Below the pieces are notes generated by a model. It searched no databases and was not told where the DNA came from. It saw only the letters and a list, made by a program, of their open reading frames with translations. DNA of 64,000 bases from Amoebophrya sp. A120 (lineage: Eukaryota > Protista > Dinoflagellata): positions 6,848,358 to 6,912,357 of the forward strand of contig CAJINV010000004.1 in NCBI GenBank assembly GCA_905178155.1, in the 5' to 3' direction. This document shows, one piece after another, positions 1-64,000 of the stretch. The position numbers and the translations under genes were made by a program. How positions within the stretch are numbered: position 1 is the stretch's first letter; each line of letters begins with the position of its first letter.

Positions 1-1058
1 GCTGGACACAAAGCAGATTATCACGGCCGACGTAGACTATCTGGATGAGGGAGGATCCTTAGCCGGGATCGCCCTCCCCTTCAAGCGAGTAGACTGCCGG
101 AACAAGATCGCTGATTTTAACTATCCTCTGTGCAAAAGCTGTATTGCGCTCGCACTAATTCCAGGCATGAAGCACAAATCTTGTCTTTCAGTGAAAGCCG
201 CACTACAGATTTCAGTTGTAATGCAGCTGAGAAAAGTTGTCATGCGATAGCGATTTCTACTACTAGTGAAACTGCAGCGCGATACTTTTGCAATGCATAT
301 CAACGGCATCCTGCCCCATTGCACCACCCCTGTGTTTCCCGCCACCTGGGCAAAGGACCGAAGTCTGCGGCCCAAAGAAATCCAACACGTGGACGACCTG
401 GAGTTTTGCGACTCGCCAGAGATGGCGCAGCTTCTCCTCGACGCGGCCAACATATCAAGCGTGAAAGTGTCTGGGTCTGGAAGATTCTGAGACTTGTCAT
501 TCATGTTTTGCATTGGCCATGATGTCTGTGATGCATGCCCTAGCATCACAGATTTTTTGAGGGCTTCGCGATGCCTATTTATTTTCCGCATGACAAATTC
601 CCTCTCCGCGTAGGCAATCGATAGCGGTTTTGCAGGTGCAGCCGGGTGGTAGTTAGGAAGTGGGCCGCGTCTCCACCTAGGGGTATCGGCAGAGGCTAAA
701 TCTGTTCTAACGCCCAGGTATTGGCAGAGGCTAAATCTGTTCTAACGCCGACCCGCCAGGAGTTAAATGGTACTACTACTACTACGCGTAGCAAAAATTG
801 TATTCCCTCTGCTGCTCATGCAATGCAGATTTTTTTGGAATCCAAATTCAGCATCACAAGTTGCATTCTTCCAGACCCAGACATTTTTACATTTGATACA
901 ACAACCGGAAAGACGACCAGTTCCAGGAGTGTTGCCGCATGGTCGCGGTGTGTTACCCACACGGGTGCGCGCTCCCGTCGAAAGCCGTGCCGGAAAGCGT
1001 CGCCAAAGTTGTCACGTTCGGGTATGAGACGATGGGGCCACGTATGCAAGGCAGATGA
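1..1058 (+). CDS. Hypothetical protein, 3' part, split by two introners (exons ~<1-121, 305-452, 904-1058)
   Basis: Frame LDTKQII...KIADFN joins GILPHCTT...LLDAAN joins NRKDDQFQECC...MQGR* when each introner and one 5-bp repeat are removed; TGA at 1056-1058. Confidence 0.7.
122..299. mobile_element. Introner (non-canonical intron), TAT...ATA, diverged TIR
   Basis: Left tatcctctgtgcaaaagctgtattgcgct vs reverse complement of right end tatgcattgcaaaagtatcgcgct; flanks ttaac/tcaac; removal restores frame; internal tgtcatgc. Confidence 0.75.
453..898. mobile_element. Introner family A carrying a nested SINE-like insertion
   Basis: TIR tatcaagcgtgaaagtgtctgggtctggaag / cttccagacccagacatttttacatttgata; direct repeat caaca at 448-452 and 899-903; removal restores frame. 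Confidence 0.92.
614..784 (+). mobile_element. SINE-like (or 5'-truncated LINE 3'UTR) element with (TAC)n tail, copy 1
   Basis: Interrupts the family A consensus; 7-bp duplication cgcgtag at 607-613 and 785-791; internal 35-bp tandem pair 682-751; ends in tactactactacta; near-identical copy at 15180-15321. Confidence 0.85.
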
Positions 1059-1268
1059 AATAGTCGCGTAGTTCTTCCCGATTGTTGTCGATTTCTTGTG
1101 ATGCATGAGGCGCGCAAAAAAATTAAAATATGAATTTGAAAGCTACCTCTTCTTGTTCTGTAATGCAATCGGACATTACAACACACACGACAAATCGGCT
1201 CCACGAAGATGAACACGCGGATTTCGTTTTTCCCTCCCACACCAAACCTCCACGAAGCTCGGCTCGCG

Positions 1269-2275
1269 ATGGACACCTTCCGCCGCGCGACGAACATTTA
1301 CGGGCAGTTAGCCATTGCAGTGACCGACGAGAACGGAAACGAAATCATCAAAAACTACCGCGGGACGAAAAATTACATCCGGTCAGACAAGTCCAAAAAC
1401 GACTTCGCCAGAATCATCGAAATTACGAAGAAAAAACTCGGCCCGAACTTCAAGGAGAAGAAGGACGTCGTGGGCTCCTGCCCCAACAAAGAGGATTGCG
1501 AAGCGTATCCGCTCCACGTCTACGACTGGATGTTTGAACTGCACGGCTTCAGCGATTGCTCCCGGAAAGCGCAACTCCAGGAGGGGAACGTCCGGATTAC
1601 TTGGATGACCGAACAAGCGGGTGGAGAAGCAGAAGCAGGCGGTGGTACTGCTGCTGCTGTTGTCAACACCGAGATGAACGACAAGAAGAACGCCGAACAA
1701 GAAGAAGCAGGAGCTGGTCCTGCACCTCCTGCTGCCCCGACATCAACTACTACAAAGATGAAAACGAAAAAGGCGGACCGTACCGGGAAGGAGGAGCGCG
1801 AGGCGTCCAAGCGACATGGGCGAGGAAACCTGCGGCACCTAGAAGGCCGAACGTTGACCTGGGTGAAGGGCCGGGAGTTGTGGGGGAAGGGGGAGAGGAG
1901 CTACGGAAAACTGGGTTTCCTGCCCTTCCGAGACTGGCCCAAGCACTGGTGGTATCAACTGCAAAAATGTGTGGGTCTCGAAGAATCCGAACTTGTGATG
2001 CTGCATTTGGATTCCGAAAAAACCTGTAAGTATTGCATAAGCAGCAAAGGGAATGCAATTTTGGCTACGCGGAGAGGGCATTTGTCATGCGGAATAGGTA
2101 TCACGAAGCCCTCAAGAAGTCTGTGATGCTGGGGCATGCATCACAGACATCATGGCCCATGCAAAACGTGCATGACAAGTCCCAGAATCTTGATCTTCCA
2201 GACCCAGACACTTTTGCATTTCATAGCTGGTTTTTGAAAGAGCAGGACGTACAGCCGTATGTGGATTTGTTGGAG
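1269..2275 (+). CDS. Hypothetical protein with one introner; start (1209 or 1269) and 3' end uncertain
   Basis: Long ORF to ...DWPKHWW continues as FLKEQDVQPYVDLLE after removing 1953-2225; possible GT donor at 2276. Confidence 0.6.
1953..2225. mobile_element. Introner family A
   Basis: TIR tatcaactgcaaaaatgtgtgggtctcgaag / cttccagacccagacacttttgcatttcata; flanks ggtgg/gctgg; frame restored. Confidence 0.9.
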
Positions 2276-2508
2276 GTACATAGTACTTATTCCCCAAAAT
2301 TTTTTCTCTACTACGTCTACGACTACGTGAACGGTTTAGAAGTATTGTCTTGTTGAAATCAACTACCTGTACCTGCTTCGTTTCACGACCGACGAAGATG
2401 AAGAACTGAATTTCTACCATGCTGTTGCTGACACGACGCACATGGCTCCTTCGTGCATCAATGCACCAACTTCCAGCTCTTATTGCTAAGAAGCGAGCCG
2501 AAAAAAAA

Positions 2509-3691
2509 ATGTCGGAAGATAACTACTTACTTACAATCTTTCATACCTCTACATACCAGGTCATGTTCGGCGTCGTGAACCAGAAAGAATACGAAGCAGC
2601 GTTGCAAACCGGACTCTCCAAGGATGACGCCCTGCAAAAAGCCAGCTGGTTGAAGGAGCCGTGTACCCTGAGAATTAGTAACACGTCGCTGGATATCTAC
2701 GCGACCCCGCGGTTTGATAAAAAAGCAAAAGACGTGATCCACATCAAAATGTCCGCCCGGAAAACGGACGACTACCGATACACCAACGACCACGCGACGG
2801 GGCACTGGGGGGAGTTTGAGGAGAAAGTTAATGCGGACTTCAAAATTATGGAAGTGTCAGAAACGAAATCGTCAAAGTTGAAATAGTTTGTCATGCATAA
2901 GATGCAAGGCATGGAGTGCCTGTCTTGCCGGGATGGCAAGTGAGGCAGATTGTGAGCTTATTTAGGGTTTGGGATAGAGCTGCTGAAGGAGCATGACAAA
3001 AAAAGTCTTCTGTGCCCAAACAGCATGACAAATGGGATTCCGGTCGTGCTCCGAAAATTTGTCATGCGCCGTTTGAAAATTGGGCTTCCAACTGGTATCC
3101 ATTTTATGCATGACAAATCATTTCAACTTTGACGATTTCAATCCTGACAGATCCATAAAAATGGTCATGTCCGACGAGCAGCGGTTGCAGCAAGAGGCCC
3201 TGCAGAAGATGAAGCAACAGCTGAAAGACGAGCGTATTCTTGCACAGAAAAAAGAGTTATCCCAGAGAAAAAAGCTGGCAGGGCATGTTTGTCATGCAAA
3301 AATAGATACACAGAAAAATCTGTCATGGGCGGACTCATAGCATGCTATTTAGGATAATACGCAATACAAGTTTTTTTGTCAATTTATTTTTGCATTACAA
3401 AGAAATGTGACCTGCCAGCTTTTTTCTGTGTGATAAGAGCAAGAGGAGGAACAAGGCAAGAAGATGAACAACGGGAAAAATAGCAAAACGTCCAAGAGTA
3501 GTACCGCGTCTGGCGCACTAAACGTAAAGAAGAATCAAGAGGAAAAAGAAAAAAAGGTGAATCCGAACAAGGCGAAGGACAAACAATCAGCTTCTACGAC
3601 GACGAAAGCCAACAAGCGCAAGAAGACTGAGGAGACGGATGGAAGTAAAGAAAAACCCGATCCGGCGTCAAAAAAGCAGAAGAAAAAGTGA
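2509..3691 (+). CDS. Hypothetical protein with coiled-coil and Lys-rich C-terminus, two introners
   Basis: MSEDNYLL...VNADFK + MVMSDEQ...AQKKE + QEEEQGKKMNN...KKQKKK* join in frame after removing both introners; A-rich start context. Confidence 0.75.
2847..3157. mobile_element. Introner with ~54-bp TIR
   Basis: tatggaagtgtcagaaacgaaatcgtcaaagttgaaatagtttgtcatgcataa mirrored at the right end; direct repeat aaaat (2842-2846, 3158-3162). Confidence 0.9.
3258..3435. mobile_element. Introner
   Basis: TIR tatcccagagaaaaaagctggcagg / cctgccagcttttttctgtgtgata; flanks agagt/agagc. Confidence 0.9.
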
Positions 3692-4269
3692 GGGTTACTA
3701 CCTCATACATGAGCTGATCTTCTTGTTATGGGATTTGGTACAATTTCAATTTCATCATCCGTGTCCGACCTTCTTAGATGTTGCCAACGAACGTGCTATT
3801 TACGTAGATTTTTGTTGAAATCGTATTCCTACTTTCAATTGTGCTGCTGCACTGGAGCAAAGACTCCAAATCCATCAGCGACCGTTCTTGTGCCGTCCCG
3901 CCTTCTCCGTCGAATATATTCCACCTCTCTGTACTAGTGTGAGTAACAGAATGGACGTTGACGCTAGTCGAGTCTTTTGCTTTTTGTTTGTTCTTCTATG
4001 TTGTTGTACTGACCAAATACACTTACGCAGCGGTGAAAAGTCTCATGTTTGAACCGAAACAAAGGAACTCGGTCATGCCTGCTGCGGTGATTTTTTTCAA
4101 CGCATGGATTGAATTGTCGCTAACGAAACTAGGTTCTGGACACTTTTATGCGCATTGCTTCTGATTGTCGATTCCTTATTGACATCCATCGTCATCGTCT
4201 GAATGAACAAGGTAGTAGTAGTAGTATTACCCATCAAAACGGGGTAAAACGATAAATAAAAGAGTCTAT

Positions 4270-7200
4270 CTATTTATTATCGTTAGTATTGCAGCTGCCG
4301 GAGCCGCTATCGCTGCCTTCTTCTATTTCAGGTTCGTCTTTTTTCTTCTTCTTCCCCCGCGCGGGCTTGTTCTTACATTTGTCTTGGTGTTTCCGCATCC
4401 TCCCGACGTACCAGTTTAGTGCTCTATTCTGGCAGTGCCACTCCTGATCGTTGTGGTCGTATCGTAGCTTGTAAGTCCTGCAGTGCCTGCACCTCAAGTA
4501 CTGCTCTCCTGATCTACTCGTGAACATGTTATCGGTGGGAACACAAATCTTCCACGCCTTGCCTTGGCCTCCATATGTGTACCTGCCTGTTGCGCTGCAC
4601 CAGTAGTGATACTCTGTTCTACACACACTGGGAGGATTCTGTGACCCATGCGGCCTTTTATCCAGCGAAGAATTATAGCCCACCTTTATGAAGTTCCCGC
4701 TCCTGTGGTCCTCAGCATGCTTTTCCATGGCGCCCGCCGACTCCACAAAAGTAAGGCCGCATGGTATGCATCGAATTTTCTTGTGTGCGTGCTTTCCTCC
4801 TCCCTTTTTCAGTTCGCGAATTTCCGGATTCCGCTGCAGTATATTCGTCTTGACTTTTTGATCTAGCAAGGCGTCTTGATGCTGGTTCACTTCCAATATT
4901 CGCTGTAGCATGGGGTCATCAGCAACAGGGTAGCGGGCAGGATGCTGTTGCTCCAGGTGCTCGAGAAGGGGCGCAGGCATGCCACAGGAGGGGTGATTCT
5001 CGGCCAATTCGTCAAAATACTCTCTGCGATCAACTTCCGCCTGCGAGTCCAGTCCCATGAAACCAATGATGCTGCGCGAACACCAAAAGCACTCCTCACT
5101 GTGAAAAACTTGCTCCGGGGCGCCGTCAGGAATCTTCATCATCTGTTGCAGCTCTTCCGCCACGGCGTCGTCGTCCCAGCCCAGCTCTTCGCCCTCTTTA
5201 CGAATTTCGTCTTTCATTTTCTCGAGCGGTGACGAAGAAAAATACTTCGCCGCCAACTCAATCTTTAGCAATTGGTCACCATCAGCCCAGTCTTCTGCCG
5301 TCTGCCGGATGAAGGCCCATCGAGTCAAACAGAAATAAACCTTTTTGTTGACTTTGTAGCACGACAGCTCATTTTCTGCAGGTGGTGGTCTCCTCGTGTC
5401 CGCCTCCGCCATGGGCTCCCACAGCAGCTGAAGAGCCTCCGGGCCCAATTTGCATTCTTTGCGAAGGAACTCCAGCGCGTCACCAAAAAAGTCAGGAATT
5501 TTCTTCTCCCGCGCCTCTACCTCTTTCAGATCCTGCGCCGATCTGTAGTAGTCATGCAGGCATAGCCGCGGAACTCCCAAGGCATCTGCTTCCGCTGGTG
5601 GGCTGGCTCGCGGATAAAATTTGCCGATCAGGGCCGCTCGTACCAAGTCGTTTTTTGGTTTCCGCATAGTATGCGCGATCGTCTTCAGCTGTAGGTACCT
5701 GACTTGAGCACGAATGGGAGGGATCTTCATTCTGCGCCGCAGGCTGCGCGAGCTGGCCTGGTTTTGGTCGTGTACCCATAACGGTATCCCCAAGAACATC
5801 TTCATCATTTTTGTTTCCGCCGTTTGTAACAGGTTGGAGTGGTCCTCCCCGACGAATCGGACCTGTAGGCCGTAGATCATGATGGAGCGGACCACGATGA
5901 TCAGCAGTTCCCCCTTGCGCTGCTGTGTCAGGCCGGTTAACCCGGAAACTGTCGACTTTAGTGCATGAAACGCCGACCAAGCCTTTGAGATTTTTATGCG
6001 GATATCTGCGTCGTCGTTCGTGTTCACGCCGAGGCTTCGCGTTTGAATTTTTGTGATGTCGTCCATGATTCTCTTGCTCATGTTCTCACTCATCCCGCAC
6101 TGGTTCAAGACATTGCTCATCAGCTCGGTCAGTTCGTTGTTGAGTGGCTCGAGCTTCTTCTTGATTCGCTCGCTATTGTCCTCCACCTGCTTCAGCACCT
6201 CAGCAGCCTGCCCCTGCGAGAATAGGGTGGCGTCGTCGGCAAAGAGAAGGCGGCCCAGCAAGAATTTTATTAGCGTGTCGTCTTGATTTTCACCGAGCAG
6301 TGCTCTCTTTCCCGCTTTCGCCAGCTCGTGAATTTTTTCTTTTCTTTCCCAGTGTCGCGCCTTGTCCATTGCACTCAAACTAACGCCCCAGGCTTCTTCC
6401 GGTAACTTCCGCCGCTCTAACTGAAAAATCCGCATTACAGCCGAATAGCAGACCAAGAACAAAAGGGGAGAAGATACACAGCCTTCCTTTGTTCCGTTTT
6501 TTACGGTAAGTGGTATGCTGTCTTCAAACATATGCGCCGCCGATCGATGTGAGCACCTTATCACCTGCCAGCATCTTGATTCTCCCAACCCGAGTTCTCG
6601 AAACACGCCTTCCATCAATCTCTCATCGAGGCTAGGGAATGCCTTGCGTAAGTCGATGAGCGTCGCCACTAATCGGTAAAAGGTTGGGGACTTAGAGAAG
6701 TGTCGGAAGTCTTCGCGTATTCGATTGAACACCAAAAGGCTGTCCAGCGTTCCTACTCCCGCCCGGAATCCAAACTGCTCGGCGTTGAAGTAACCCACGG
6801 CCTCGAGAGCCTTGTATAGGCGGTCCGAATAGATTTTCGTAACCAGTTTCATGAGTAACGGACTGATTACCAAAAATCTATAGTTATCGGCTGAACTTCT
6901 TGCGCCTTTGCCCTTGTGCAACGGAATGTCGCGACACAAATGAAATTTTTCTCCCAATTCCGAGAGGGGCCTCGTGTCCATCTCGGTGCTGATAATTCCC
7001 GCGATCACTTCCACCGAATCATCACTGAAGTGCTTCAGGATTTGCGGGGTGAGTCCGTGCACGTCTTTGGCCTTGCCTCCTTGCGCCATGTGACGAATCG
7101 CCTGCGCAAGCTCCTCTGCCTCCACCGGTGCGTCCAGCTCCGCGACTGTTTCCGGCCGGAGCTTCGTCACTACTTCTTTCAACCTGCTGTCGATCGGAAG

Positions 7201-11167: not shown

Positions 11168-12116
11168 ATGTTTCGTCCTTCTGCGTCACGACTCGTGGCC
11201 GGTGCTTGTGTGGCGGTCCCGCTGCTTGTCGGAGCCGACTCGTCGTCCCGCAGGGGGAACCTTCGCGGGGGGAAGAAAAACTACAAGCTTGATGCTTCTT
11301 CTGGCTACCAGAGCCACGACCAAGACCAGGAAAACGACGCTGCTTGTGCTTCTTCGATAGGCACTGCCAGCGTCCGCGCTTCTACTTCCACCTTGACGGC
11401 CGCGGCGGCATCTGCTCCTCCTGCGCCGTCGACTTCGCTGCTCTCCGTTGACCACGGTCACGGAAAAAAGCAAGGCCGGCACCACCACCACCGTATGGCT
11501 TGCTCAGCTGGGACAATGATCTCAACTGGTGGAGCAACTTGAATTTGAATTTGTGATGCAAAAAGAAAAACTGGTGGACGATCTGGCTACGGCTACTAGT
11601 AGCCTTATCATGCAGTCTGTACTTAGGATGACAAACACAAAGCCCTAGCACTCCAAACCGCCCTCGGAATCATTCTGCCCACTAGATTTACAATTAGCCA
11701 TGCAGAAGCAGAAATACTTGGAGTAGAGCAAGTGGAAGTGCTTTTTAGGCTCTGCCGCGCCCATTACAAAATTTCTCGTCCTGTGTAAATGGCAATAGCG
11801 CGGCGCGCTATTGCGATTTACGCAGGACGAGAAATTCCGGCCGGTTCCATTGTTCCACGACTCGAGATTTTTGTTCCAGCTTGGCATGGCATAATACACC
11901 GGCGCGCGCTACCTCCGCAACAACCGCTCGTTCCGCAGGGACCGGCGATGCCTCCGCAGCCGCAGCAACATGTTCTTGCCCAGGGACCGTCGGGGTCGTT
12001 GCAGTATGTCCCGCAAGCTGCTGTTGCACCGCAGGACCCCAGCACTGGTCCTGTTGCTCCGCTGCCCGCAGGTGGAGCTGCCCCCTCGGCGCCGACACCT
12101 CAAAAAAAGGGGTTCG
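11168..12116 (+). CDS. Hypothetical low-complexity protein with signal-peptide-like N-terminus; 3' end uncertain
   Basis: MFRPSASRLVAGACVAVPLLVGA...GRHHHHR joins RALPPQQP...KKGF after removing 11494-11896; probable GT donor at 12117. Confidence 0.65.
11494..11896. mobile_element. Introner containing an internal 67-bp palindrome
   Basis: Left tatggcttgctcagctgggacaatgatctc vs reverse complement of right end tattatgccatgccaagctggaacaaaaatctc; direct repeat caccg (11489-11493, 11897-11901); frame restored. Confidence 0.85.
11770..11836. repeat. Near-perfect palindrome (33-bp arms, 1-nt centre)
   Basis: aatttctcgtcctgtgtaaatggcaatagcgcg-g-cgcgctattgcgatttacgcaggacgagaaatt, two mismatches. Confidence 0.9.
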
Positions 12117-13025
12117 GTAAAAAGGCGATGATTCTATGAATTGCAAAAGTCATTTCGACGCACTTACTCTTGTTCTCACCAAAACGAATTGCAGTCATTG
12201 CATGACAGACCTCTCTCTTAAGGCAGATCAGCATTGCATCAACTTTTACATACTCCTCAATTTGAGAAAATTATTCGTGATGCAATTTCTACTAGAAAGC
12301 GCGTCACCGTAGCACTTTTGCAATGCATAGCATGCACAGCTCCAGAAGAGCAACCAGGGTTTCCGAGAAGACATTGACAAGCAACGAGGACCGTGCCCGA
12401 ATTGCCGCTGAGTGTCGATGTTACGAAGAGAGTGAGTGGATCCGAGCCTTCTTGATGGGTTTGTGTTTTTATGTAGAGAAAAGGGTTTATTCTGATTTGG
12501 CTTCTGCTTTGACTTCATTGTGACTTGAAAGAATGAAGGGTCCGGCGTCCTACCGAGTTCGGTTTTCATTTTGACGGAACATGCAATTTTAACATCTTCA
12601 ACGTCCTAGCACTTTCTTAAAAACTTCGCATCTACTTATGGAATTATGATCGACATACCAGTACTGACGCAGCTTCAACAAATAAGTATCATCATCGCAA
12701 ACTTGCAAATACCTAAAATAAAGTAAAAGTTCGTTTTACAATATTTTTTCGCGAATTTAACGCGCGTCCCAAGGTGGAGGACAACCGAAAGTATGAAATT
12801 ACATGATAGGAACATAATCTGCATGGAGATGGACAATGACATAGACGAGCAAAGGCAGAAAAACGCCAGTAAGTTGTCGGTGCTGAGTCACAACAACGAT
12901 GAAAGAACGCGAGAAATATTGCAGGCAAATGGCGCCTTTTATTTGCCTCCCTCAATTTGTTGCGCGACGATCGACCGGAGAACCCGCCGGCTCATGCAGG
13001 CTCATGTTCTAAATAATTTTTCCCA

Positions 13026-13060
13026 ACCTCCATACCAATAGAGTCTATTGGTATGGAGGT
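13026..13060. repeat. Perfect palindrome (17-bp arms, 1-nt centre)
   Basis: acctccataccaataga-g-tctattggtatggaggt. Confidence 0.9.
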
Positions 13061-13988: not shown

Positions 13989-15584
13989 ATGTCTTGTTCT
14001 CTCAGATCTTCGCCGCGTCTCCTCCACGCGATTGCCTTGTTCCTGCAGCTCAATTTTTCCACGGTAGCCGGCACGGGTTTTTTCCTGAAAAGAACGAGGA
14101 AAAACCACAGCAGGGCGGAGAACGGGCAAAAAGTTACAGCCTTCTCATCTCGCACAGCCCGTCCCGAGCCGCCCCCCTTACGCCACGACGCAGATGTCGT
14201 CTTCACAAACAGCCTGACGGACGAAGTCCTCGCGACACTGCCCGTGGAGATCCCGCGGGATTTTTCGCACTTCATGCAGGGACTGATGTTCCGGCACGAG
14301 CTGCGGTCGGCGGAAGGCGCTGCGGTGGAAGAGGAAAAACAACTTGACTCTTCTTCTTCTACTTCAGAAACAGCAGATTTTTCACAAATAACAAATCCTC
14401 GTCCCGGTAAAGACGCGGGGATGATCTTCCAGTGGGAACACGACGATAACAACAACCACGGCGCGCGTGGGTTCTGGATGAAGCAGACTTTCATCGATCT
14501 GGACATTCTGTGGTGCGACTCCAAGAATGATTTGGTCGATTTCAAACAGGCCAAAGCCGACGACTTGAACGCGGTGACGCCGAGTCGAAGCGCGAAATTT
14601 GTCGTGGAGGCCCGGAAGGGATGGGCGGCGGAGAAGCTGTTTGGGAGGATGTTGCGGAGTGGTGGTGGAGAAGATGATAGTAGAAATGATAATCCTATCA
14701 AATGAAGAAGTGTCTGGGTCTGGAAGAATGCAACTTGTGATGCTGCATTTGGATTTCAAAAAAAGCTGTATTGCGTGAGCAGCAAAGGGAATGCGATTTT
14801 TGCTACGCGGGGAGGGCGTTTGTCATGCGGAATAGGCATCAAGATGCCCTTAAAACATCTGCGATGCTAGGGCATGCATCACAGACATCGCGGCTCATGC
14901 AAAACGTGCATCACAAGGCTCAAAATCTTCCAGATCCAGACATTTTTGCATCTGATAAATCCCTCGTTCGACAACATCAAGTGCGCGATTGATTTCAAGA
15001 ACGGGGAGACATCCTTGCTGGGCGGAATGATGCGGCCGCTGGGCGGGATATCAAGTGGAAAAATGTCTGGGTCTGGAAACTTGTGATGCTGGGCGGCTTA
15101 TCATGAGGAGGCCACAAGTGCTGGCTCAGCATGAGAAGTTTCTGAGCTTCTAGGTGTTGCCTATTCTGCATGACAGACTGCCGGGTGGTAGTTAGGACGT
15201 GGACCGGGTCTCCACCTAGGGGTATCGGCAGAGGCTAAATCTGTTCTAACGCCCAGGTATTGGCAGAGGCTAAATCTGTTCTAACGCCCACCCGCCAGGA
15301 GTTAAATAGTACTGCTACTACTTGCATGACAGAAAAGTTGCGCTCTTGGGTAACGTGCATGACAGATTTGAGAGTCATGCCAGACACGCATGACAAACAT
15401 GGACTCTTCCAGACCCAGTCATTTTTACGTTTGATACGGGAATGTAGAACACGACGACCACGATGCCAAAGAAGCAGGAGAAAAACCGCAGCAGTTCTTC
15501 ATCGCCAAAGACGACCTCCCAGCGTTCGGCGCGAGTCGGGAGGATGTGGTGCTGGCGAGGGCGAGGGGGGTGCTGGATTTTTGA
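13989..15584 (+). CDS. DUF192 (COG1430)-like protein with signal-peptide-like N-terminus, two introners
   Basis: Motifs LPVEI..QGLMFR..GMIF..FWMKQTFIDLDILW..FVVE..G match DUF192 as I recall it; exons 13989-14695, 14963-15048, 15442-15584 join in frame to TGA. Confidence 0.8.
14696..14957. mobile_element. Introner family A
   Basis: TIR tatcaaatgaagaagtgtctgggtctggaag / cttccagatccagacatttttgcatctgata; direct repeat aatcc. Confidence 0.93.
15049..15436. mobile_element. Introner family B (family A TIR, different core) with nested SINE-like insertion
   Basis: TIR tatcaagtggaaaaatgtctgggtctggaa / ttccagacccagtcatttttacgtttgata; direct repeat cggga; core matches 50066-50317 in reverse complement. 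Confidence 0.92.
15180..15321 (+). mobile_element. SINE-like element with (TAC)n tail, copy 2, 5'-truncated relative to copy 1
   Basis: gccgggtggtagttagg...ggagttaaatagtactgctactac, near-identical to ~641-785; replaces about 4 nt (gttt) of the family B consensus. Confidence 0.85.
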
Positions 15585-16117: not shown

Positions 16118-19100
16118 ATGCTGCAACCCTTGCTGCGGGCCGTACAGACCGTCTGCGGTGCCTGTGGCCAGAAAGGCAGCAGCGCCAGTAGGAGCACAGA
16201 CGGGACGACAACCACCGCAGTTTCGCAGAACACCATATTATCGGGTACAGCCGCACCCATACAGAAGGATGAGGAGAGGAAAGAGCAATCACCTGCTGCT
16301 GGACGACCTATTCCACCTTCCGCGGAGGCTGCGCCCGAGTCCGTGGCTCCTGGTAGCGGTGGTGCGGAGCAAGGTTCAGGGGAAGAAGAGCCTCGTGTTG
16401 CTACTCCACCGGCGCCCACTGCTGCTGCTACAGCAACAGAACCACCCTCCGCCTTCCAACTTCACGACCGAGTGAAGATCAAAGACCTCGCAAAAAAACC
16501 GGAATACAACGGAGAAATCGGAAAAGTCATCAAGATCGTGGAAAACGAGGAAAAGGAGAAAATCCGGTACGGGGTCGAAATTTTTGCCAACAAAAAACAG
16601 CTCTCCCTCTTGGCGAAAAATTTGGAGAAACAAGAAGGTGACGGCGCGTTGAAAATAAATGCAGGCACTGGCTCTTCTATTGGGACTAGCAGCAGCAGCA
16701 GCGGTATTGCAGCAGGGAATAAAGCAAGAAGTAAAAAGCAAGATTTCGGTTCGGGGTTTTTGAAGAATCGCAAACGGATTTTTGACGACTATGACAGTGC
16801 ACAACTCCCCCTCCCCCTGATTTGTCATGCAAAGTGGCAAATCCACCCTTTGCCTCTTGGCACTGTTTGCATAGCAAGGTTTGGTAGCCCAAAAAGCACT
16901 ACAATCCAGTGTAGATTTGTCATGCAAAACCGGCATTTTTGCTGATGCTTGTATTGCCGTTCTTCATGCTATACAAATGTTGAGGGGGAGGGGGAGTTGT
17001 GCACTCTCATAACGACAAGACCGATAATAGTACTTCCGCAGGTAGCAATAGAAGCTCCTCCTCCTCCTCGTCCCAGCAACCAGTGTTGAACGATTTCCAC
17101 TCCTTACCAAAAGAAAAACAAGTCCAGATCCTCTTCGACCAAGCGGGCACTTTGTTTCACCAGAACGAGTTCCGTTTAGCCTTAACCGTCTTCCAGCAGG
17201 CCTTTCAGCTGTGTGAGACCGACGAGAAATTGCAGGGCCACGCGTACCGCTACTTAGCGAACTGCAAGGAAAAGATGCGGCTTTCCTCGGATTGCAAGGA
17301 AGCGCTGGAGTATCCAAGAAAAAAACTGTGTAAGTGTAACTTTGTGTTGCAGACGATGCAAGACAATTACACCTGTGATGCTGGACATGCATCAGAGGCT
17401 CTTTTCGTACGTGTTTCCACGTACAAGCCGCGCATGACAGGCTCTCTCTGTCATGCAGAGCAAACTTGTGATGCTATTCCTCCAAGAAAGTTACACTAAC
17501 ACAGTTTTTTTCTTGGATATGGAGGATTTGAAACAAGCTTTGCGCATAGCCCACCTCCACAGCGATTTCGTCGGTACGTTTGACTTATGCATTGCAAATA
17601 TGTCTGGGTCTGGATGAGTGTAGACGTTTGTCATGCACACTTTGCCTACGCCCTACCGGCTGTGATGCATGCCCTAGCATCACAGATTTAGTGAGAGCTT
17701 TCTGATGTTGCCCATACTGCATGAGAAATGCCCTCTACGCGTAGCAAAAACGTGACCGCTTTTCCTTTTGATGCAATACAAATTCTGTGTAGAATCCAAA
17801 GGCAGCATCACAAGTTGGCATCCTTCCGGAGGACCCAGACATATTTGCAATCCATATGACTGCTTGACCGCGTTTGGCTCCTGCTACATGTCGTTGGACG
17901 ACAGAGACGCCGCGGAAATTCACTACCGCCAAGCATTGGAGTTGAGTAAACGGGAGCTGGAGGGGCTAGACTGGCAGTTTGAAGCTAGAGCGCTGGTGAA
18001 TCTAGGTAACATATGCTTGTTGTGATATACTGTGTTTCTCTTTCTTGATGTGTGCATGGCGAATCAATCGGGACTGTTTTCTGTGCATGTCAAACACTTT
18101 CCCCAATAAAAAGCGGTTTATTTCACGCTTTACAGGTATTTCCCTGCGCCGGGATGCCGATGAAAGCGGTGTTTCCGATTACGAACGGTACGAAAACACG
18201 TTGACGCCGATATCAAAATGAGAAATCCCCCCGCCCCATATCGAAACGAACTCTGTGATGCTGGATTTGCGTACGCAAATCAGATTTGTCTTGCTGGAGA
18301 GGACTGCAGGCCCATATCAAGCCTGAGTAGCGAGGTTCTGGCCTAGGCGCGCAGCATGAGAAACGTCTGCGCTGTAGACCCAACAGTATCACAAACCGCC
18401 GACATAATGCGGCGGAGCCTGTGGAGTTGCCTTCTTGCAGGACAGGGATGAATTGTGGTCGCAAATCAGCATTGCAAATTTTCTGCGACGTACCTCTTCG
18501 ATATGGGGAGGGGGGATTTTTCCTCGCGATAGCCGACGGAACTCTATTTCAGCCAGGCGGTCGAGATTTGGGAAGCGAAGGGGCACGAATTGTTCCAACA
18601 AGTAGCTCGTGGGGGAAGTACTACGGAGAATAGTAACTACGCAGCGGGTGGTCACGCAGCTGTCGCTACTAGGAGAACAAGTGAGATAAGCCAAGAGGCG
18701 GATAGGGGACCAACAACACCCGATATCGCTCCGGCTACAACTGTCGCTACGAGTATCAACTCCTACATCGTTCTCCTCACAAACTTCGCATCTACTCACC
18801 TCGGCCGGGCGAGTTACGAGGACGAAAAGGAACAACCGGATGAGGCGAAGCTGCTGCACCATTTGCAAAAGGCGAAGCAGTTACTCAGCACCGGGCTGAC
18901 GTATTGTGAGCAGCAAAACAACCTGCGGCTGGCAAAGGTGATCAAGTTGAACTTGAACAACAACCGGGAACTTTTTGCCAAATTGGAGGCGTGGGAGGAA
19001 GGGCAAGGAGAAGCAGCGGCGGTGGCGGTGGAAGCTTTGTCTTCTTCTTCTTCATCAGCCGATGTTGGGGAAGTTCCACGAGGTGGCGCTGCAAGTATGC

Positions 19101-45251: not shown

Positions 45252-45315
45252 ACTATTCATATTCCAAATTTTCAAAAAAAAAAAAAATTCCAGACCCGGC
45301 CTGATTATATTCTTT

Positions 45316-46540: not shown

Positions 46541-46548
46541 ATATTCTT

Positions 46549-49206: not shown

Positions 49207-52196
49207 TCATTGTCGCTCAATGAAGCAGTGATGTATCGGTGGACAATCTTCGTCATCGTCAGCATCAGAAGTTGTAATATTACACGTTATCTCGTCGGTA
49301 GTTGTTGTGGTCGCATTTTTATCGATCTCCTCGATCTTCTCGCATGTTGTATTCGTTTTCGTCATCATCGGCGTGTCGAAAAGCTCGAAATCCACATGTA
49401 GAGAATCTTGTGCCGTCAAGATTTTCTTCTTCGGAAATGGGAGCCACAGGCAGTAATTTTCGTCGTGATGTAGAGCTGGGTCGACGGAGGTATCCTGTTG
49501 TTCATCGGTTTCGTCACGGTCATGATTGTCGTTTGTAAGTTTTCTCTTTTTCTTCATATTCCTCGTTTCCCGCTTTTTCATCTTCTTCAATCGTTTCGAG
49601 TGCACAAACGGAAACCCTGCCGCGTCCCTGACGTCTGCTTCTGTGAGTTTCACGTTGAATATGGATGAATTTCTATCAGCGGCGTCACAACTGCTGCCAG
49701 AGGTGCGTTCTTTAATGGGCGCCGTTATCAATGCGGGGGCCTCGGGCTCGGCGATTGTACAACTGTTCTTGCCGGCACCCCCTGGCGCACAAGAGGAAGA
49801 GCAACTTCTGCTGTCAACAATGTTTCGAAAGAAATTGGTGGGCGGAGCAGGTGGGTTCGCCTTTGCACGTGGCTGAGCAGGACGAGGACGTTCCTGTCGC
49901 TGGCCATCATCTAGCTCCTTGGTATTACAGTCAAGTGGATTTATCGCATGTCCATGTCGCGCATCAGCGTCGAAAATGTTTATTCTGTCAGCATCCCGTT
50001 CTTCTTCTTTCCATTCGTCAAACGTCGGGACTCCGCTTGGTCGCCGGCCCAGCCAGAGGTCAGCATATCAACTGTAAAAATGTCTGGGTCTGGAAGAATG
50101 TATGTTTGTCATGCTTGTCTGGCATGACTCTTAAATCTGTCATGCACGTTACCCAAGAGCTCCATTTTTCTTTGATGCAGAAACGCAGTTTGTCATGCAG
50201 AATAGGCAACACCTAGAAGCTCAGAAACTTGTCATGCTGAGCCAGCACTTGTGGCCTCATCATGAGACGCTACCCAGCATCACAAGTTTCCAGACCCAGA
50301 CATTTTTACATTTGGTACAGCATCCCGTTCTTGTTTCCACTCGCCAAACGTCGGGACATCCCTTGGTCGCCGGCCCAGCCACAGGTTCGCGAGAAACGTC
50401 ACTCTGGGGGGATCGCGGTCCAAGGACGGATTTTTCGGCGCACCAGAGCGGCCAACGTTTTTCAGATCTGTCTTCCTTGCTCCTGATCCAAACTTTTTAT
50501 TTCCAATCTTGGTTTTTTTCAGAGCGCGACCACCGCCGGTGGCATGTGCAGGTTCTTTCACAGCAAATTCGGCTGGAATACCGTGCAAAAAATTTCCGGA
50601 GAAGGCGATGTGTTTTCCTTTTCGCGGGTACGAAATCAGGCCTTTCGAGACGCCTTGTTGCGTAGTAGAAAGGGTTCTTTTCGTTGTGCTCTCATCCTGA
50701 TTTATTTTCTCCTGGTTAACGACATCAATACTCCCGTCGATGCCGTTGCCGTTCCCATCATCCGCGTTCTTGTTCTGTGTTGAGCTGTTGCTGGGGCTAG
50801 TACAACTTGTAGCTGCTCCCGATAAAAAGTGATCAAAGGGCACGGCATTCAGCACGATAGTGGGCGCAAAGCTGTTCGTCTTGCGGTTCGGCTCGGAAAG
50901 GTAGGTGACGGTGGCCAGGAAGGGGCAGTCGGTTTGTTGTTTATCGTCGCTGTTCATCTTCCCCCGGGCTCCTCGATTATTCTCAAAAAATTCTTGCGCC
51001 TCATCCCGGTCCCAATGAAAATCTTTCCCTTGGCGTTTTCTCGAATCCGCCACTTGGATCCACCACTCGACGCCCAACACATCTTCTGGTAGTTGAGTGG
51101 TGGACGCTGTTGTTGAAGCCGTCGGCGCATCATGTTGAAACACAGTGTCATCTAGCTTGAGATGCTGTTTCCAATAAGAGAACACCTTGTCCGCAAGCTC
51201 TTCGCAGGGGTTTGTCGCTGGTGCATCCACTATGCATTCCAAATACTTATGCCTGGGTCTGGAAACTTGTGACGCAAATCTACGAATTGTGGGCGCACTA
51301 CAATATGCAACCCGGCATGACAAGTTTTTGTTTTTGCGCTGCTGTGTGTTTCGTTTTTTGAATGACAAACTGCGTTTTTGCATGACAGGCAATAGGCCCT
51401 TTTCCTGCTCATGCATCACAGATTTAAAAGAAAAAGTCATGCCAGACAAGCATGACATTTTTGGACTTGCATTCTTGCAGACCCAGACATTTTTGCATTT
51501 GATATCCACCGGCTTCCACCAGGAGTGGCCGATGGGAAGGTTGGGAGAGAGGGTGGGAGCTGCTGGGGGGGAAAGAGTTCTTTCGGTGGTCTTCGTCATC
51601 TTTAGGGTTGATGTAGCATGCGTTGCAGCGGCTGCCGTTCTTGCGACACCTCCAGGTGGATCAGCATCTTTTACGTTTAGTTCGTCCGTGATAGAAGTGC
51701 CTGTAGTTCCCGTCGTCGTGCTAGAAGTATTGGCGAAAAGCATGTAGTGCGCGCGGTCGAAGAGGTCATCATCAATGACGTTTTTTACAGCTGCCGGACC
51801 ATTGGCACCTTCGCTCGGTGATGGAGCAATGCGATTCAGAAATTCCGGCGCATTTGCTTTATCGCCTTGCTGTGCCTGCTCCTGGTTCTTGGTCGCAGAT
51901 TCCCCACAAAAAGTCGCGACGTTGAAGAACTGGTCACAGATTCCCCACAAAAAATCTTTGGCCTGGTCAGCACATAATTGCGACGAAAAAGCTCGCGTGT
52001 CTGTTCTTGTCCCTGTTGCTGGTGTAGCAGTGACCGGAGAAATTTTCTCCTGTTCACGGAGCAGTAGACCCTGTTGGTCGCTTTTTTTCGACACGATGGC
52101 GCCCGCAGACGAAACTCCCGCTTGCTGGTGAGCAGCATCGCCAGCGGTTTTCTTCTTCGCGGCTTTTTTTCTCGTTTTCGATTTTTTTTTCGCCAT
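49207..52196 (-). CDS. 2OG-Fe(II) oxygenase-like protein, two introners
   Basis: GVEWWIQ..FHWDRDE..ATVTYL..PT..GKHIAFSG.FLHG..RVTFLANLW fits the HxD...H...R double-stranded beta-helix pattern; frame runs from MAKKK through both introner junctions to the stop at 49207. Confidence 0.72.
50066..50317. mobile_element. Introner family B
   Basis: TIR tatcaactgtaaaaatgtctgggtctggaa / ttccagacccagacatttttacatttggta; direct repeat cagca. Confidence 0.92.
51231..51504. mobile_element. Introner family B variant, stop-free and frame-preserving in the host ORF
   Basis: TIR tatgcattccaaatacttatgcctgggtctgg / gcagacccagacatttttgcatttgata; direct repeat tccac. Confidence 0.9.
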
Positions 52197-54291: not shown

Positions 54292-57200
54292 CTATACCAA
54301 AGAGGGCTGTGCCGATTCCCGCTGCGCTTTCTGTCGCCAGTCTTTCGGCTCTCGAGTCTGCCAAGGAACAAGGTCAACAGCACCGGCCTGCAGAGCAGGG
54401 TCTACTACTTGCTGCAGTTCCGACTCCTCATCCTCTTGGTGCCAATCTGCCCATTCTATCGGCGCCTCTTCGTCATCTCGTCCATCTTCTTCAAAAGTTT
54501 CATAGTATTCAGGATTTATGATGCCGTCGCGATAAAACAGACCACTGCCCGGATCCTCGTGATCTACTTCCTGCCCCATTTTTGGTAGCCGATCAGGTTG
54601 TGCCGTTGCAGCAGGGGCAACAGAAGATGTTCCATGATGAGCACGAGTAGGTCCTCCAGTTAGAACTTCCCCGGTGCTGTTACTTGCCGTTGTGGCAACG
54701 GTAAGGTTATCGCTGGTTTTGCGTCGATGTGGCGAGGACCCTGCTCCCCAGGGATTTGCCTCGGAGCCGGTCCACCAAGAATCGTTGGCTTTGTCGGCTT
54801 CCGCTTTGGCGGGGTGTACAAGTACCTGGCTGGGCGGAACACCGGTTGTTCCGTGCCAGATCTCTTGTCCTTGTGGCTGAAGAGGCGCAGTAGAAGCCGT
54901 GCTGGATTTCTTGACGAGATCTGTTTTTGGTTTCGCAGTCTTTATCTGTGGATGGGGATTGGAACGGAAACACGACGAGGAGAAAAAGTTGTGAGAGTTT
55001 TGCTATCAAAAATCGCAAACCCAAAGTCTGTCATGCGGCGACCCTGAAAAATAAACCACCAATCATAATCTCTTACGGGAGATAAAAAAGTCAAACCACG
55101 AACCTGCGACATCTGGCCCAGCCATGAAGGCGTTGACCTTTATCGAATGCAAATATGTCTGGGTCTGGAACAAGCCAGCCACTTTTCATGCGGTTTTTGC
55201 ATCTGCGCGAAGGGCTGGAAAACAAAGAAGAGCGTGACGAATTCCGCAGGAGCCTCTCCATTCCTAGTTTGCATGAGAGATTATACCTTCCCTGGAGACA
55301 AAATACCATCCACTGGAGGCGGCACATGTTTTGCTGACTCTGCAACACAGATTTTTGTTTTTCGTCGTTTCAGAATCCGCATCAGAAGTTTGCTTCTTTC
55401 CAGACCCAGACACATCTAAATTTGCAAAGCATAAGGTTCCACCTTGACGGGGATGCCTCGACGACCTCCTGCTCCTCCTCCACCAGCTCGAACGGTCGTT
55501 TGAATTGGCTCTGCCCACCCTTATTTTTACCCGGCATGTCCTCATCCTTCGGCGGCAGCGTCAAGTGGTGCTGCCCGATCGGGGCCAAAGACCCTACATT
55601 CGTTATCATTTGATGTTGTTGCACCGCCGGATAGGGCGAGGCGCGGGAAGCAGCAGCTGTTCCCGGGTAGGGCGCAGCGGAAGCGCGTAGTGGCGAAGAC
55701 GGTGCGGAGGTCGGGGCAGGTGCATTCATCGAACCGGCTCCCTTGATACCGCTCAGGAACGGCACTGAAGGAGCATGTTGGGGCGGCTGAGGGAGGTGTT
55801 GAGCATGATGAAGATGCGACAACCCAACGCCACTGCTAGTGGCAGTACTAGCACCTGCTCCCGGGGCGGGCGTCGCTGCGTGATACATATGTGCAGGCGG
55901 AGGCCCCGGGACGGAGGAGTGATAGGATTGTCCCGGCGTGAACTGTGTCGCAGCGGCGTTGAGCGAGGACGGAGAGGTCGGTGGTTCCGGTTGTTGCTGG
56001 TGTTCCACCTGATTGTCGAGGACTCCAAAAAGGTGGTTTCCATGATGCTGCTTCAACTGCTCGTGCACGACGGAATTTGTAGTTCCTGTACCAGAAATCA
56101 AACCTGGTCCGGCTGCTGCAGTGGAAGCGGAGGAAGACACCGCGACCGGAGCATCGGCATTATTTGCGATCACTTCCATCCCCAGAGCCATTTGCCGGCT
56201 CAGACTGTTGGCGTAGGCCTGTTTGAATCTTTCGTTCAAAGCGGCGTCGGATACTTTACTTTCCTTTCCGCTTGTTTGCTGCGCTTGCAGTTCCTTTTCC
56301 TTCTCCTGGTGTTCCTGCCACCAACTGCGCGCTTTTTGAATCGCCTCATTAAATTCTTGCCGCCGCTTTTCTGCCTGTTGCGCGAACTGCTGCTGTTGCT
56401 GTTGCTTTTGCTGCTGTTCCTGTTGCTGCGCACGCATGCGCTGCTCCACTTGCTCCAGCGACAGTGTTTCGTGAACCATGACAACCCCACTTGTAGAAGG
56501 GGCTGTGACACCAGCTTCGTCGTGCACCAGCTGCCCCTGATACTCCGACGAATGTTGGCCAGGAGAGGCGCCCATGACCGGTGCAGACGAGGCCGAGAAA
56601 AGTTGTTCCAGTACCTTGCTAGGCTGACTGTTGTCGGTATGTTGCACGTTTTCAGTGACAACATTGTTACCAGTAGCTGCACCTCCTTGTAGTTCTTCTT
56701 TTGGATCATTGTCAGCACAGACACAGACGTAGACCTTCGCTGCGCCGTCAATGTGCGCAAGTGCAAGGTTGGGGTCTGGGGTGTAGTCATAGTCGCCCTG
56801 CTGCTTCGCCTTCACTTGCGCATGAGCTGTTGGCGTACCACTAGTGATGCCAGCAGTTGCTAGTGGTTGTTGTTCACCAGCAGCTCCAGCTGCGGCTACT
56901 GCAGCCGCAAACAGAGGGGCCGCCGCGGCTGCGTCCGCACAGTACTGCTGCTGCTGCTGCAGCGTGAGATTGGGCGGCAGAAGCATTTGATGGGGTGCAT
57001 CAAAAGCAGCAGCTCCACTAGGTGTAGCAGTTGATGGTCCACCACCACCTCCCATGCTCTCCAGGCCGGGTGGAGCACCGGGCGGTAGAGTAGCGGTGAT
57101 CTGTGGCGAGGGCGTGGCGCTCACCGTCTGGGATAAAAGAGGCGAAAAACCAGCAACAGAGCTCGTGCCGCCCGTGCCCCCGGTGTCGGCCGGGATGAAA

Positions 57201-62400: not shown

Positions 62401-64000
62401 TCAAAGACGCGTGGAAAAGCTTGATCTCAGGATCTTCGATCTTGCCGTGGTCCGAGGTCGTTGCCTGTTTAGTTCATGGTGTGGAAATGCTACTTATAGC
62501 TTAATTTTATCTTTTTGTATTTGTTGCGTTTCCTTTTGTTGACCTTGACCCAGCAGTTGTTAGTTGTCATGTGTTTGAAGACAACAGAAAAGAAAAACCA
62601 AAATTCTGTAGATTGTTCTTGCATAAAAAGTATAAAGCAATATTGTCAACAACATCATAATACCTCGTCGTTGCTGTTCCTATTCAGCTTGCCCACCACG
62701 TTCAGCATCGTTTCGCGTTCAATCTTTTGATCCACCGCAGACCCCTCCTGAAGGCGCAGCTGAAACCACATGCGCTGATGGAACGTTATGCATTGCAAAT
62801 ATGTCTGGGTCTGGAAGAATGCAACTTGTGATGCTATTTTTGGAACCCACAAAAATCTGTATTGCATGAGCAGCAAGAGGCGTCCAGTTTTTGCTCCGCG
62901 GAGCGGGCATTTGTCATGCGGGATAGGCATCAAGATTCCCGCAAAAAATCTGTCATGCTAGATCATGCACTACAGGCATCATAGCCCATGCGAAATATGC
63001 ATGACAAACCTGGAAATCTTCCGGACCCAGACATTTTTGCATTTGATAAACGTGCTCACTGAACCATCAAGGCCGTCGTTGAAGATTTCTTTCGGAAATA
63101 AAGATGTTTCGTCCCGGAGGTAGGCAGCGAGGAAGTTTTGCACCACTCTCGATATTATTTCCAGATCTACTTTTGGAGGAGCGTCGCTTTGTTCTTGAGC
63201 TACTACTTCCGCAATTTTGTCTGCCAGCTTTACTCCTGGAGGAGCGCCAAGGGGGCTCGTACTTCTCCGCAGCTGTTCCTTTAACTCCTCCTCAGTCCTG
63301 ACTTTTTGGCCGTTGCGGGTGGATATTTGTCCACTGCGGTCCACGTGCGGTAGGAGAAACATCAGCTTGAGGACAACCAGAAGACGCTGGTTCCTTGCAG
63401 CAGAATAAATTTTGTTCCTTGATGTTGTACATCTATTTTCCTCGACGTCGTCGTTGTCACAAAACCCGGCGATCATCCCCAGTAGCGCGGGCAAGAGGTC
63501 CCTTTTCAGAAAAGTGACATACCCCGCCAAGGACAACTTGTTTTTGGGCCAGAATCGGTTGGACGACAGTGTCACTTGTTCGTGGCCATCTTCCTCTGGC
63601 TTGCTGATGCTGTCCATGTCCATTTCCTCTCGGTGAACAACAACCTTCCTTTTTTTAGTCGCCGGCTCTACAAGTAGGTCTTGCGCTCCTGCTTCGTCAT
63701 CCTGTTGCGCTTCGTCGACGTCCAGTTTCGCTTCGTCGTCCTGTTTATCCGCTTTATCATCCTCGTCCGTGACTGGTGTTCCGTGCGGCACTGAGAGTAC
63801 GTAGGCAGTCAGGGTTTCGCACAGAGCCAATACCAACTCCTCCAACTGCTCGCTTGCGTTCTCTTTTTTCGTCATAGCTGTAATTTGCTCTTCTACAATT
63901 TCAGCAGGTCTGGTACTTCCTACACGCCGGCGGTTCCTCAGAAGGTCAGGTCTAACCAACTGGACGAGCGCGAGGTCATACGCCGGGTGCGCTTTTGGGT
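59420..64000 (-). CDS. URB1: Nucleolar pre-ribosomal-associated protein 1 (URB1/Npa1)-like, 3' part; GT-AG intron 62465-62663 and one introner
   Basis: YNASLSTADQ, AYDLRVL, LLLASLG...VRSLALNVL, MLLDQVRNSL, FAMFFAKSAQ and EKRFLLNIV follow the order of conserved blocks of the URB1 C-terminal (NopRA1) region as I recall them; exons join in frame. Confidence 0.7.
62787..63048. mobile_element. Introner family A
   Basis: TIR tatgcattgcaaatatgtctgggtctggaag / cttccggacccagacatttttgcatttgata; direct repeat aacgt; join VSTF-HQRMW. Confidence 0.93.

What the first reader, a model, noticed from the sequence alone, without database searches (positions are those of the whole stretch)
122..63048. Window-wide system of TAT...ATA hairpin introners with 5-bp target duplications (17 copies, ~9 TIR types)
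Seen: 17 elements start TAT, end ATA (one GTA), have 25-55 bp TIRs and lie inside coding frames. Twelve have a perfect 5-bp flanking repeat (one of them offset by 7 nt), four differ as noted, and removal of element plus 5 nt restores the frame without GT-AG pairs. Known: IR/DR-bounded non-canonical introns were reported for Amoebophrya A25/A120 (Farhat et al. 2021), with splicing machinery and transposase unresolved as far as I recall. Inference: one transposase making 5-bp staggered cuts mobilises all families, and a structure-guided excision removes them.
Basis: partly seen in the sequence, partly recalled or inferred. Interest (0 to 1): 0.8.

Follow-up and report, generated by a model that had tools for sequence, protein, structure and literature searches.

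The report
Amoebophrya transposon introns: one fixed cut
These are the already published hairpin-ended transposon introns of the algal parasite Amoebophrya A120; in a likely RNA sample every junction displayed lacks the element plus five bases, and the only cut that fits all readable cases lies one base before and four bases after the hairpin, likely made by a relaxed spliceosome, which would make this unexplained splicing testable.

Summary
I count 17 TAT...ATA inverted-repeat elements (11-12 with a perfect 5-bp flanking repeat), and transcripts reveal an 18th. The window is Amoebophrya sp. A120 (two proteins 100% identical), and the elements are Farhat et al.'s 2021 introner elements. In contigs of one likely-RNA sample, 9 of 9 displayed element joints skip exactly length + 5, in both orientations. 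One available GT-AG pair is ignored. Seven elements with unequal repeats (four read from RNA, three from gene models) share one cut: one base before TAT, four after ATA (chance 0.014). Introns therefore start N-TAT, like the host's GTA(T) donors, and all 18 commonest splice pairs in Farhat's Table S4 have T second. In a second assembly, 257 of 362 candidates have a 5-bp repeat, 4 a 4-bp and none a 6-bp repeat. No transposase was found, so 'one transposase' is untested. G-U versus A-C counts show no RNA-level selection on the hairpin. The scan found the same register before on other pieces of this genome. Verdict: already known system, with a useful refinement not found in print.

The parts
122..299 (+). 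Introner; flanking repeat 4/5; intron by inferred register 121-303
   Evidence: joint 118>302 skips 183 = 178+5 in 4 of 4 runs; left copy kept to position 2 or beyond
453..898 (+). Introner of the main family, perfect repeat, carries a nested insert
   Evidence: joint 447>899 skips 451
1043..1241 (+).
   Evidence: unambiguous joint 1041>1246, 204 nt, ends GT..AA; predicted fold z -2.1
1953..2225 (+). Introner of the main family in opposite orientation to 453; repeat 4/5; unused GT-AG placement
   Evidence: joint 1949>2228 skips 278; orientation and placements
2276..2559 (+). Canonical GT-AG intron (control for RNA nature of the runs)
   Evidence: joint 2273>2558 skips 284
2847..3157 (+). Introner, perfect repeat
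   Evidence: joint 2841>3158 skips 316
3258..3435 (+). Introner, repeat 4/5
   Evidence: joint 3251>3435 skips 183; right copy position 5 kept
11494..11893 (+). Introner; a perfect repeat lies 3 nt beyond the hairpin end
   Evidence: no RNA cover; gene model P0002 fits a cut after repeat position 3-4 from the hairpin end
12135..12329 (+). Degenerate introner, repeat 2/5
   Evidence: no RNA cover; P0002 fits position 3-4
14696..14957 (+). Introner of the main family in a DUF192 gene, perfect repeat
   Evidence: joint 14690>14958 skips 267 in 3 of 4 runs; Pfam
15049..15436 (+). Introner, perfect repeat, carries a nested insert
   Evidence: joint 15043>15437 skips 393; a competing joint 15048>15471 is unresolved
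16790..17011 (+). Introner, perfect repeat
   Evidence: 9-nt loose end at 17012 matches the left flank; frame 241/172 codons
17311..17519 (+). Introner, perfect repeat
   Evidence: frame 339/74 codons at length+5; joint not displayed
17586..17856 (+). Introner of the main family, perfect repeat
   Evidence: frame 359/54 codons at length+5; joint not displayed
18006..18135 (+). Canonical GT-AG intron
   Evidence: joint 18003>18134 skips 130
18211..18531 (+). Introner, perfect repeat
   Evidence: joint 18205>18532 skips 326
50066..50317 (-). Introner (sense start TAC), perfect repeat, inside a coding tandem repeat whose neighbouring unit is an empty site
51231..51504 (-). Introner, perfect repeat
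55141..55433 (-). Introner, repeat 3/5
62787..63048 (-). Introner of the main family, perfect repeat

Best explanation
These are the published non-autonomous transposon introns of Amoebophrya A120: they sit between 5-bp target duplications, are absent as element plus five bases from likely-RNA contigs, and are likely cut one base before TAT and four bases after ATA by a relaxed, likely U1-less spliceosome that the paired ends likely guide. Insertion (5-bp duplication shown; enzyme inferred): an integrase-like DDE transposase acting in trans makes a 5-bp staggered cut with no target preference. Shared TAT ends, an A-tract at positions 11-13 and a common internal motif suggest one transposase lineage. 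Removal (length shown; register well supported; machinery inferred): the intron reads N-TAT...ATA-NNNN. The element supplies donor positions +2 to +4 (U, A, U), as in the host's own GUA(U) donors; position +1 and the last four bases come from the duplication and are free. The terminal repeats would pair to bring the ends together and replace exon/intron definition, while weakly paired positions 4-7 would let the end open. Because the offsets 1 + 4 equal the duplication length, splicing restores the pre-insertion sequence, so insertions in either orientation are tolerated.
For: A120 identity: P0001 and P0002, 100%. Nine of nine displayed element joints equal length + 5, in contigs that also skip two GT-AG introns; the joined path is open for 596 codons. 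Register: RNA allows cuts after repeat position 2-5 (122), 4 only (1043), 2 or later (1953), 4 or earlier (3258); gene models allow 3-4 (11494), 3-4 (12135), 4-5 (55141). The intersection is 4, chance 0.014, and the three gene models alone also give 4. Farhat Table S4: 9 of 9 listed A120 pairs start N-T and 9 of 9 A25 pairs start TT; A25 repeats start TTA. Canonical donors seen: GTA in 10 of 11, GTAT in 5 of 11. No AG excess at the last two intron bases (14 of 121) and all four bases at +1. Elements 453 and 1953 face opposite ways in one transcript and both are removed. 5-bp repeat in 257 of 362 candidates in a second assembly; removal restores gap-free RPB1 alignments at 4 sites; internal empty site at 50066. 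A120 keeps 83 of 89 spliceosomal proteins and all snRNAs but U1.
Against: The four runs are one sample, are contigs, and are only guessed to be RNA. Three of seven register cases rest on deposited gene models, and the only unambiguous RNA case (1043) starts with a natural GT. Eight of the 17 listed elements have no RNA evidence here. G-U pairs are not favoured over A-C on the sense strand (134 vs 124), so selection for an RNA stem is not shown. Published dinucleotide counts may be biased by aligners towards GT, CT and AT. Farhat describe splice sites as variable relative to the hairpin and argue that the lack of a transposase in A120 rules out general transposase mobilisation. No lariat, branch point or transposase was seen. 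Element 50066 starts TAC on its sense strand and was not tested.
Confidence: 0.62

Rival explanations
1. Same fixed register, but a non-spliceosomal endonuclease plus ligase (euglenid-like or tRNA-splicing-like) cuts at set distances from the stem.
For: No sequence requirement at +1 or at the 3' end; orientation independence; a GT-AG pair ignored; strong predicted folds, z below -3.5 in 14 of 17; U1 not detected; euglenid precedent.
Against: The invariant U at +2 and A at +3 match canonical donors in this organism and recur in A25 with a different terminus. The cuts are asymmetric about a symmetric stem. Both intron kinds are removed from the same transcript.
Confidence: 0.22
2. The spliceosome is placed by proteins that read the terminal sequences or the internal TGT(C/G)ATGC motif; the hairpin is only a by-product of the transposon's inverted repeats.
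For: No G-U excess. The motif occurs 51 times in 4,738 nt of elements against 10 in 59,262 nt outside, and in 272 of 297 elements of the second assembly. Degenerate elements with weak folds (122, z -2.0; 1043, z -2.1) are still removed.
Against: The motif lies in both orientations, as expected of a DNA-level transposase site; 55141 has no copy yet is an intron in its gene model. At 11494 the gene model follows the paired end.
Confidence: 0.13
3. The elements are not spliced: the genes are pseudogenes, or the element-free contigs are DNA of a strain with empty sites.
For: The runs are not on record as RNA.
Against: The same contigs lack two GT-AG introns, mix left and right repeat halves and differ from the window at 0 letters over the listed pieces of record 1. 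A DNA-like run reads from flank into element. RPB1 carries such elements in conserved motifs. Farhat validated tens of thousands of such introns by RNA-seq.
Confidence: 0.03

Closest known systems
Introner elements among the non-canonical introns of Amoebophrya sp. A120 (Farhat et al. 2021, PMC7789003; sections 10, 11, 12, 16, passages and supplement text read; figures not seen)
   Same: Same organism; inverted repeats starting TAT, seven variable bases, then an A-tract; direct repeats of 3-5 nt with a 5-bp example; RNA-supported removal without GT-AG; machinery unresolved.
   Different: The paper calls splice sites variable relative to the hairpin and the border unknown, and saw no dinucleotide signature. 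Here the duplication is 5 bp throughout and one register fits all seven readable cases. I did not see the internal motif or orientation independence in the parts read.
A120 introner families in Gozashti et al. 2025 (PMC12130899; passages and all 58 A120 rows of sd07 read)
   Same: TIR DNA introners; family 38 (about 808 bp) is labelled Ginger with '5-bp TSD, TA/TA Termini' and has Copia/Gypsy-like ORFs.
   Different: Automated TSD calls for other families range from 2 to 11 bp, and no common register appears in the rows or passages read. I could not match window elements to their family numbers.
IS3EU/GingerRoot and Ginger2/TDD transposons (PMC10045372, PMC2836005; passages read)
   Same: TA..TA ends (IS3EU/GingerRoot); 5-bp TSD (TDD-4, TDD-5); integrase-like DDE enzymes.
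   Different: IS3EU/GingerRoot TSDs are usually 6 bp; Ginger ends are TGTNR. No transposase here, so no assignment.
Euglenid nonconventional introns and Fritillaria non-canonical introns (review PMC11282704; passages read)
   Same: Transposon-derived, TIR- and TSD-bounded introns lacking GT-AG; paired ends in euglenids; spliceosomal removal suggested in Fritillaria.
   Different: Euglenid pairing is usually CAG/CTG at +4 to +6 and -8 to -6; Fritillaria introns keep preferred AG-AC/AG-AT ends. Here pairing starts at +2 and -5, and only +2 to +4 are fixed.

Membership tests
Amoebophrya A120 introner elements (Farhat 2021) | Occurs in the A120 genome | tested here: met
   P0001 and P0002, 100% identical, named Amoebophrya sp. 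A120
Amoebophrya A120 introner elements (Farhat 2021) | Non-canonical intron supported by transcripts | tested here: met
   9 of 9 displayed element joints at length+5, none at GT-AG; one sample, RNA status inferred; 8 of the 17 without RNA evidence
Amoebophrya A120 introner elements (Farhat 2021) | Terminal inverted repeats starting TAT, seven variable bases, three or more As | tested here: met
   17 of 17 start TAT; A at positions 11-13 in 577, 603, 649 of 724 ends in the second assembly; A-tract not counted one by one in the window
Amoebophrya A120 introner elements (Farhat 2021) | Direct repeat of 3-5 nt at the boundaries | tested here: met
   perfect 5 bp in 11-12 of 17, 4/5 in three
Amoebophrya A120 introner elements (Farhat 2021) | Repeated in families | tested here: met
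   9 of 17 share one terminal type; 14 of 17 have relatives at E below 1e-10 in fetched loci
IS3EU/GingerRoot | TA..TA termini | tested here: met
IS3EU/GingerRoot | TSD usually 6 bp | tested here: not met
   0 of 362 candidates with a 6-bp repeat, 257 with 5 bp
Ginger2/TDD | TGTNR termini | tested here: not met
   ends are TAT
Ginger2/TDD | 4-5 bp TSD | tested here: met
   5 bp
Ginger2/TDD or IS3EU/GingerRoot | Integrase-like DDE transposase in an autonomous copy | not testable with these tools
   no genome held; none in 20 window ORFs or 122 of 150 long ORFs of the loci
Canonical U2 spliceosomal introns | GT-AG ends | tested here: not met
   1 of 18 elements offers GT-AG in any register and does not use it
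Canonical U2 spliceosomal introns | Branch point and lariat intermediate | not testable with these tools
   only contigs held the stretch; raw-read runs X7 and X8 laid 10 and 2 reads
Euglenid nonconventional introns | Ends held together by base pairing | tested here: inconclusive
   predicted folds pair the ends; no G-U bias
Euglenid nonconventional introns | CAG/CTG pairing at +4 to +6 and -8 to -6 | tested here: not met
   ends are N-TAT and ATA-NNNN

The most novel reading that the evidence does not exclude
Amoebophrya runs a second splice code on its spliceosome: N-U-A at the donor, no acceptor dinucleotide at all, and a 3' cut measured four bases from the foot of a hairpin. A single transposase lineage exploits it because its 5-bp stagger equals the two offsets (1 + 4), so any insertion, in either orientation, is born as a scarless intron; A25 reached the same N-U-A donor with TTA ends.
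Probability: 0.45. Interest if true: 0.75.

Novelty: already known. Interest (0 to 1): 0.42.

Why it matters
The elements and their removal are published, but how about two thirds of this organism's introns are cut without GT-AG is open. A fixed register turns 'variable, unknown borders' into a rule: it predicts the exact donor (N-UAU) and 3' end, says where to look for lariats or circles and for compensating changes in U5, U6, Prp8 or U2AF, and allows A120 gene models to be re-annotated. It also explains why these transposons are harmless in exons: duplication length equals the sum of the splice offsets.

Tried and rejected
No whole genome was available, so no genome-wide transposase or empty-site search was possible. 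The main terminal repeat had 0 matches in viral contigs. Long TAT...ATA pairs with a 5-bp repeat: 12 rows, none convincing; the best (L067, 6.2 kb) is two separate short elements around host genes. Pfam found no transposase or integrase in 20 window ORFs or in 122 of 150 long ORFs of the loci (28 left out for the size cap or as overlapping frames). The gene at 11.2-12.5 kb had no cover in X1-X4. My frame heuristic picked the wrong frame for 55141 and 453 and was weak for 122, 2847, 3258 and 12135; these were settled. The '7-nt offset repeat' reading of 55141 was rejected. RPB1 of the second assembly gave no register information, since its exonic elements have perfect repeats and 7 of 8 other gaps are GT-AG introns; an A120 RPB1 was not returned. 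None of 152 loci matched the window over 450 nt or more. The G-U versus A-C test was null. Candidates at 37225, 31559, 31933, 39659, 45705-46063 and 55004 were dropped as tandem repeats or as lacking a matching end or flanking repeat. Literature searches for a published register listed nothing beyond the papers cited; Roy et al. 2023 (Curr Biol) and Henriet et al. 2019 were seen only as references, and Farhat's Figs 3 and S19-S25 only as legends, so they may bear on the claim that the register is not in print.

Full report
Observation. The flanking 5-bp repeat is perfect in 11 (12 if 11494 is extended to 11896), 4/5 in three, 3/5 in one and 2/5 in one. A strict scan finds 23 end pairs in the window, 10 with a perfect repeat, against 101 pairs and no repeat in 100 shuffles. 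Terminal repeats form 8 groups; one holds 9 elements. Predicted folds pair the two ends, with z below -3.5 in 14 of 17 on 12 shuffles each.

Identity. Two exons retrieved proteins named Amoebophrya sp. A120 at 100% identity. Farhat et al. 2021 (PMC7789003; sections 10, 11, 12, 16 read) describe A120 introner elements whose repeats start TAT, then seven variable bases and at least three As, with 3-5 nt direct repeats; the legend of Fig. S19 shows a 5-bp example. They report no transposase in A120, no U1 snRNA, and splice sites 'variable' relative to the hairpin with the border unknown. So the system is published.

Removal. Runs X1-X4 are contigs of one sample and are only guessed to be RNA. They behave as transcripts: they skip GT-AG introns 2276-2559 and 18006-18135, and cover 17 of 30 bins where the DNA-like run X5 covers 30 of 30. 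Over window 1-19300, listed joints skip 183, 451, 278, 316, 183, 267, 393 and 326 nt at elements 122, 453, 1953, 2847, 3258, 14696, 15049 and 18211: each is length + 5. A ninth joint, 1041>1246 (204 nt), reveals a degenerate element 1043-1241. The path through 1-4097 is open for 596 codons. A competing joint 15048>15471 with 11 other letters shares its depth with a variant at 15503 and is likely a second gene copy; it is unresolved. Elements 453 and 1953 are 84-86% alike and face opposite ways in the same transcript; both are removed.

Register. Where the two repeat copies differ, the mRNA shows where the cut falls. Counting repeat positions kept from the left copy: 122 allows 2-5, 1953 allows 2 or more, 3258 allows up to 4, and 1043 allows only 4. 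At 1953 a GT-AG pair at position 1 is available and unused. Deposited gene models, which Farhat built from transcripts, add 3-4 at 12135, 3-4 at 11494 and 4-5 at 55141. At 11494 the model follows the end of the inverted repeat and not the perfect direct repeat 3 nt further on. The only common value is 4; independent uniform registers would share a value with probability 0.014. The intron is then N-TAT...ATA-NNNN. Published tables agree: all 9 commonest A120 non-canonical pairs in Farhat's Table S4 start N-T and all 9 of A25 start TT, where repeats start TTA. In Gozashti's sd07, N-T starts sum to 6,681 of 9,716 (family 2), 892 of 1,322 and 383 of 540 (my sums, and aligner bias towards GT, CT and AT may inflate them). 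Of 11 canonical donors seen, 10 start GTA and 5 GTAT.

Wider sample. The main terminal repeat matched 156 stretches in metagenome contigs; the 80 listed all lie on contigs JACKZZ01..., a different accession series from the A120 assembly named, origin not examined. In 152 loci, 362 distinct candidates included 257 with a perfect 5-bp repeat, 40 with 4/5, 4 with a 4-bp and 0 with a 6-bp repeat; some of the rest are internal false pairs. All five large terminal groups are mostly perfect at 5 bp. Targets show no sequence preference. In 121 strand-assigned perfect elements, +1 takes all four bases and the last two bases are AG in 14. Removal of element + 5 gives gap-free alignments to RPB1 orthologues at 4 of 6 exonic sites, a one-residue gap upstream at a fifth and a weak match at a sixth. 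In the window, the coding repeat unit before 50066 carries a single copy of the repeat: an empty site. The motif TGT(C/G)ATGC is about 60-fold denser in elements than outside (51 in 4,738 nt vs 10 in 59,262 nt) and occurs in 272 of 297 elements across groups.

Against. On the sense strand of 139 elements, G-U (134) and A-C (124) oppositions are equally common, so the repeats need not be under RNA-level selection. Stem positions 4-7 are weakly paired (60-102 of 139) against 132-134 at positions 11-13. No transposase or long coding element was found, and no genome was available.

Mechanism. Shown: 5-bp duplication, removal at length + 5, both orientations, GT-AG not needed. Well supported: the 1/4 register. 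Inferred: an integrase-like DDE transposase, since TA..TA ends mark IS3EU/GingerRoot (usually 6-bp TSD), 5-bp TSDs mark TDD-4/5, and Gozashti label A120 family 38 'Ginger, 5-bp TSD, TA/TA Termini'. Also inferred: removal by a spliceosome that keeps donor +2 to +4 and takes its 3' site from the stem. That U6 reads donor positions beyond +2 in other organisms is recalled, not from a call. The main rival is a non-spliceosomal endonuclease and ligase as suggested for euglenids.

Novelty. The class, the TAT start and a 5-bp repeat are in print. A fixed register was not found in the papers read or in searches; figures and Roy et al. 2023 were not seen. Earlier agents of this scan reported the same register and motif on other pieces of this genome; I had stated my reading before looking, and their notes are not independent evidence. 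Verdict: already known, interest 0.42 for making the splicing question directly testable.

Noticed in passing
window 607-791 and 15167-15333: The same retroposon-like insert (96% alike over 143 nt, TAC-repeat tail, internal 35-nt duplication) sits inside two different introners, each time with its own 7- or 11-bp duplication. Both hosts are still removed exactly. No match in the 152 loci.
   Followed up: partly
window 4270-10419 (-): Intron-free 2,049-codon ORF with a reverse transcriptase domain (RVT_1, E 1.5e-9) and a TAC-repeat tail near 4211-4227: likely a non-LTR retrotransposon. No cover in X1-X4. Five copies of the introner motif fall in a coding repeat at 9453-10294.
   Followed up: partly
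window about 39500-49000: Gene-poor block with alternating GC 38-60%, 14 tandem-repeat rows (periods 12-158) and long imperfect inverted repeats; no introners. Nature unknown.
   Followed up: no
window 27300-39500: About 12 kb of ORF fragments without Pfam hits in the six tested and without TAT...ATA elements, unlike the flanking genes.
   Followed up: no
window 13950-15600: Eukaryotic DUF192 gene with two introners; contigs show a second, diverged copy (12 differences in 214 nt; alternative joint 15048>15471).
   Followed up: no
L069:8540-8779: An introner nested inside a canonical GT-AG intron of RPB1.
   Followed up: no
L067:4300-8300: One host gene carries about ten introners of several terminal types within 4 kb.
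   Followed up: no
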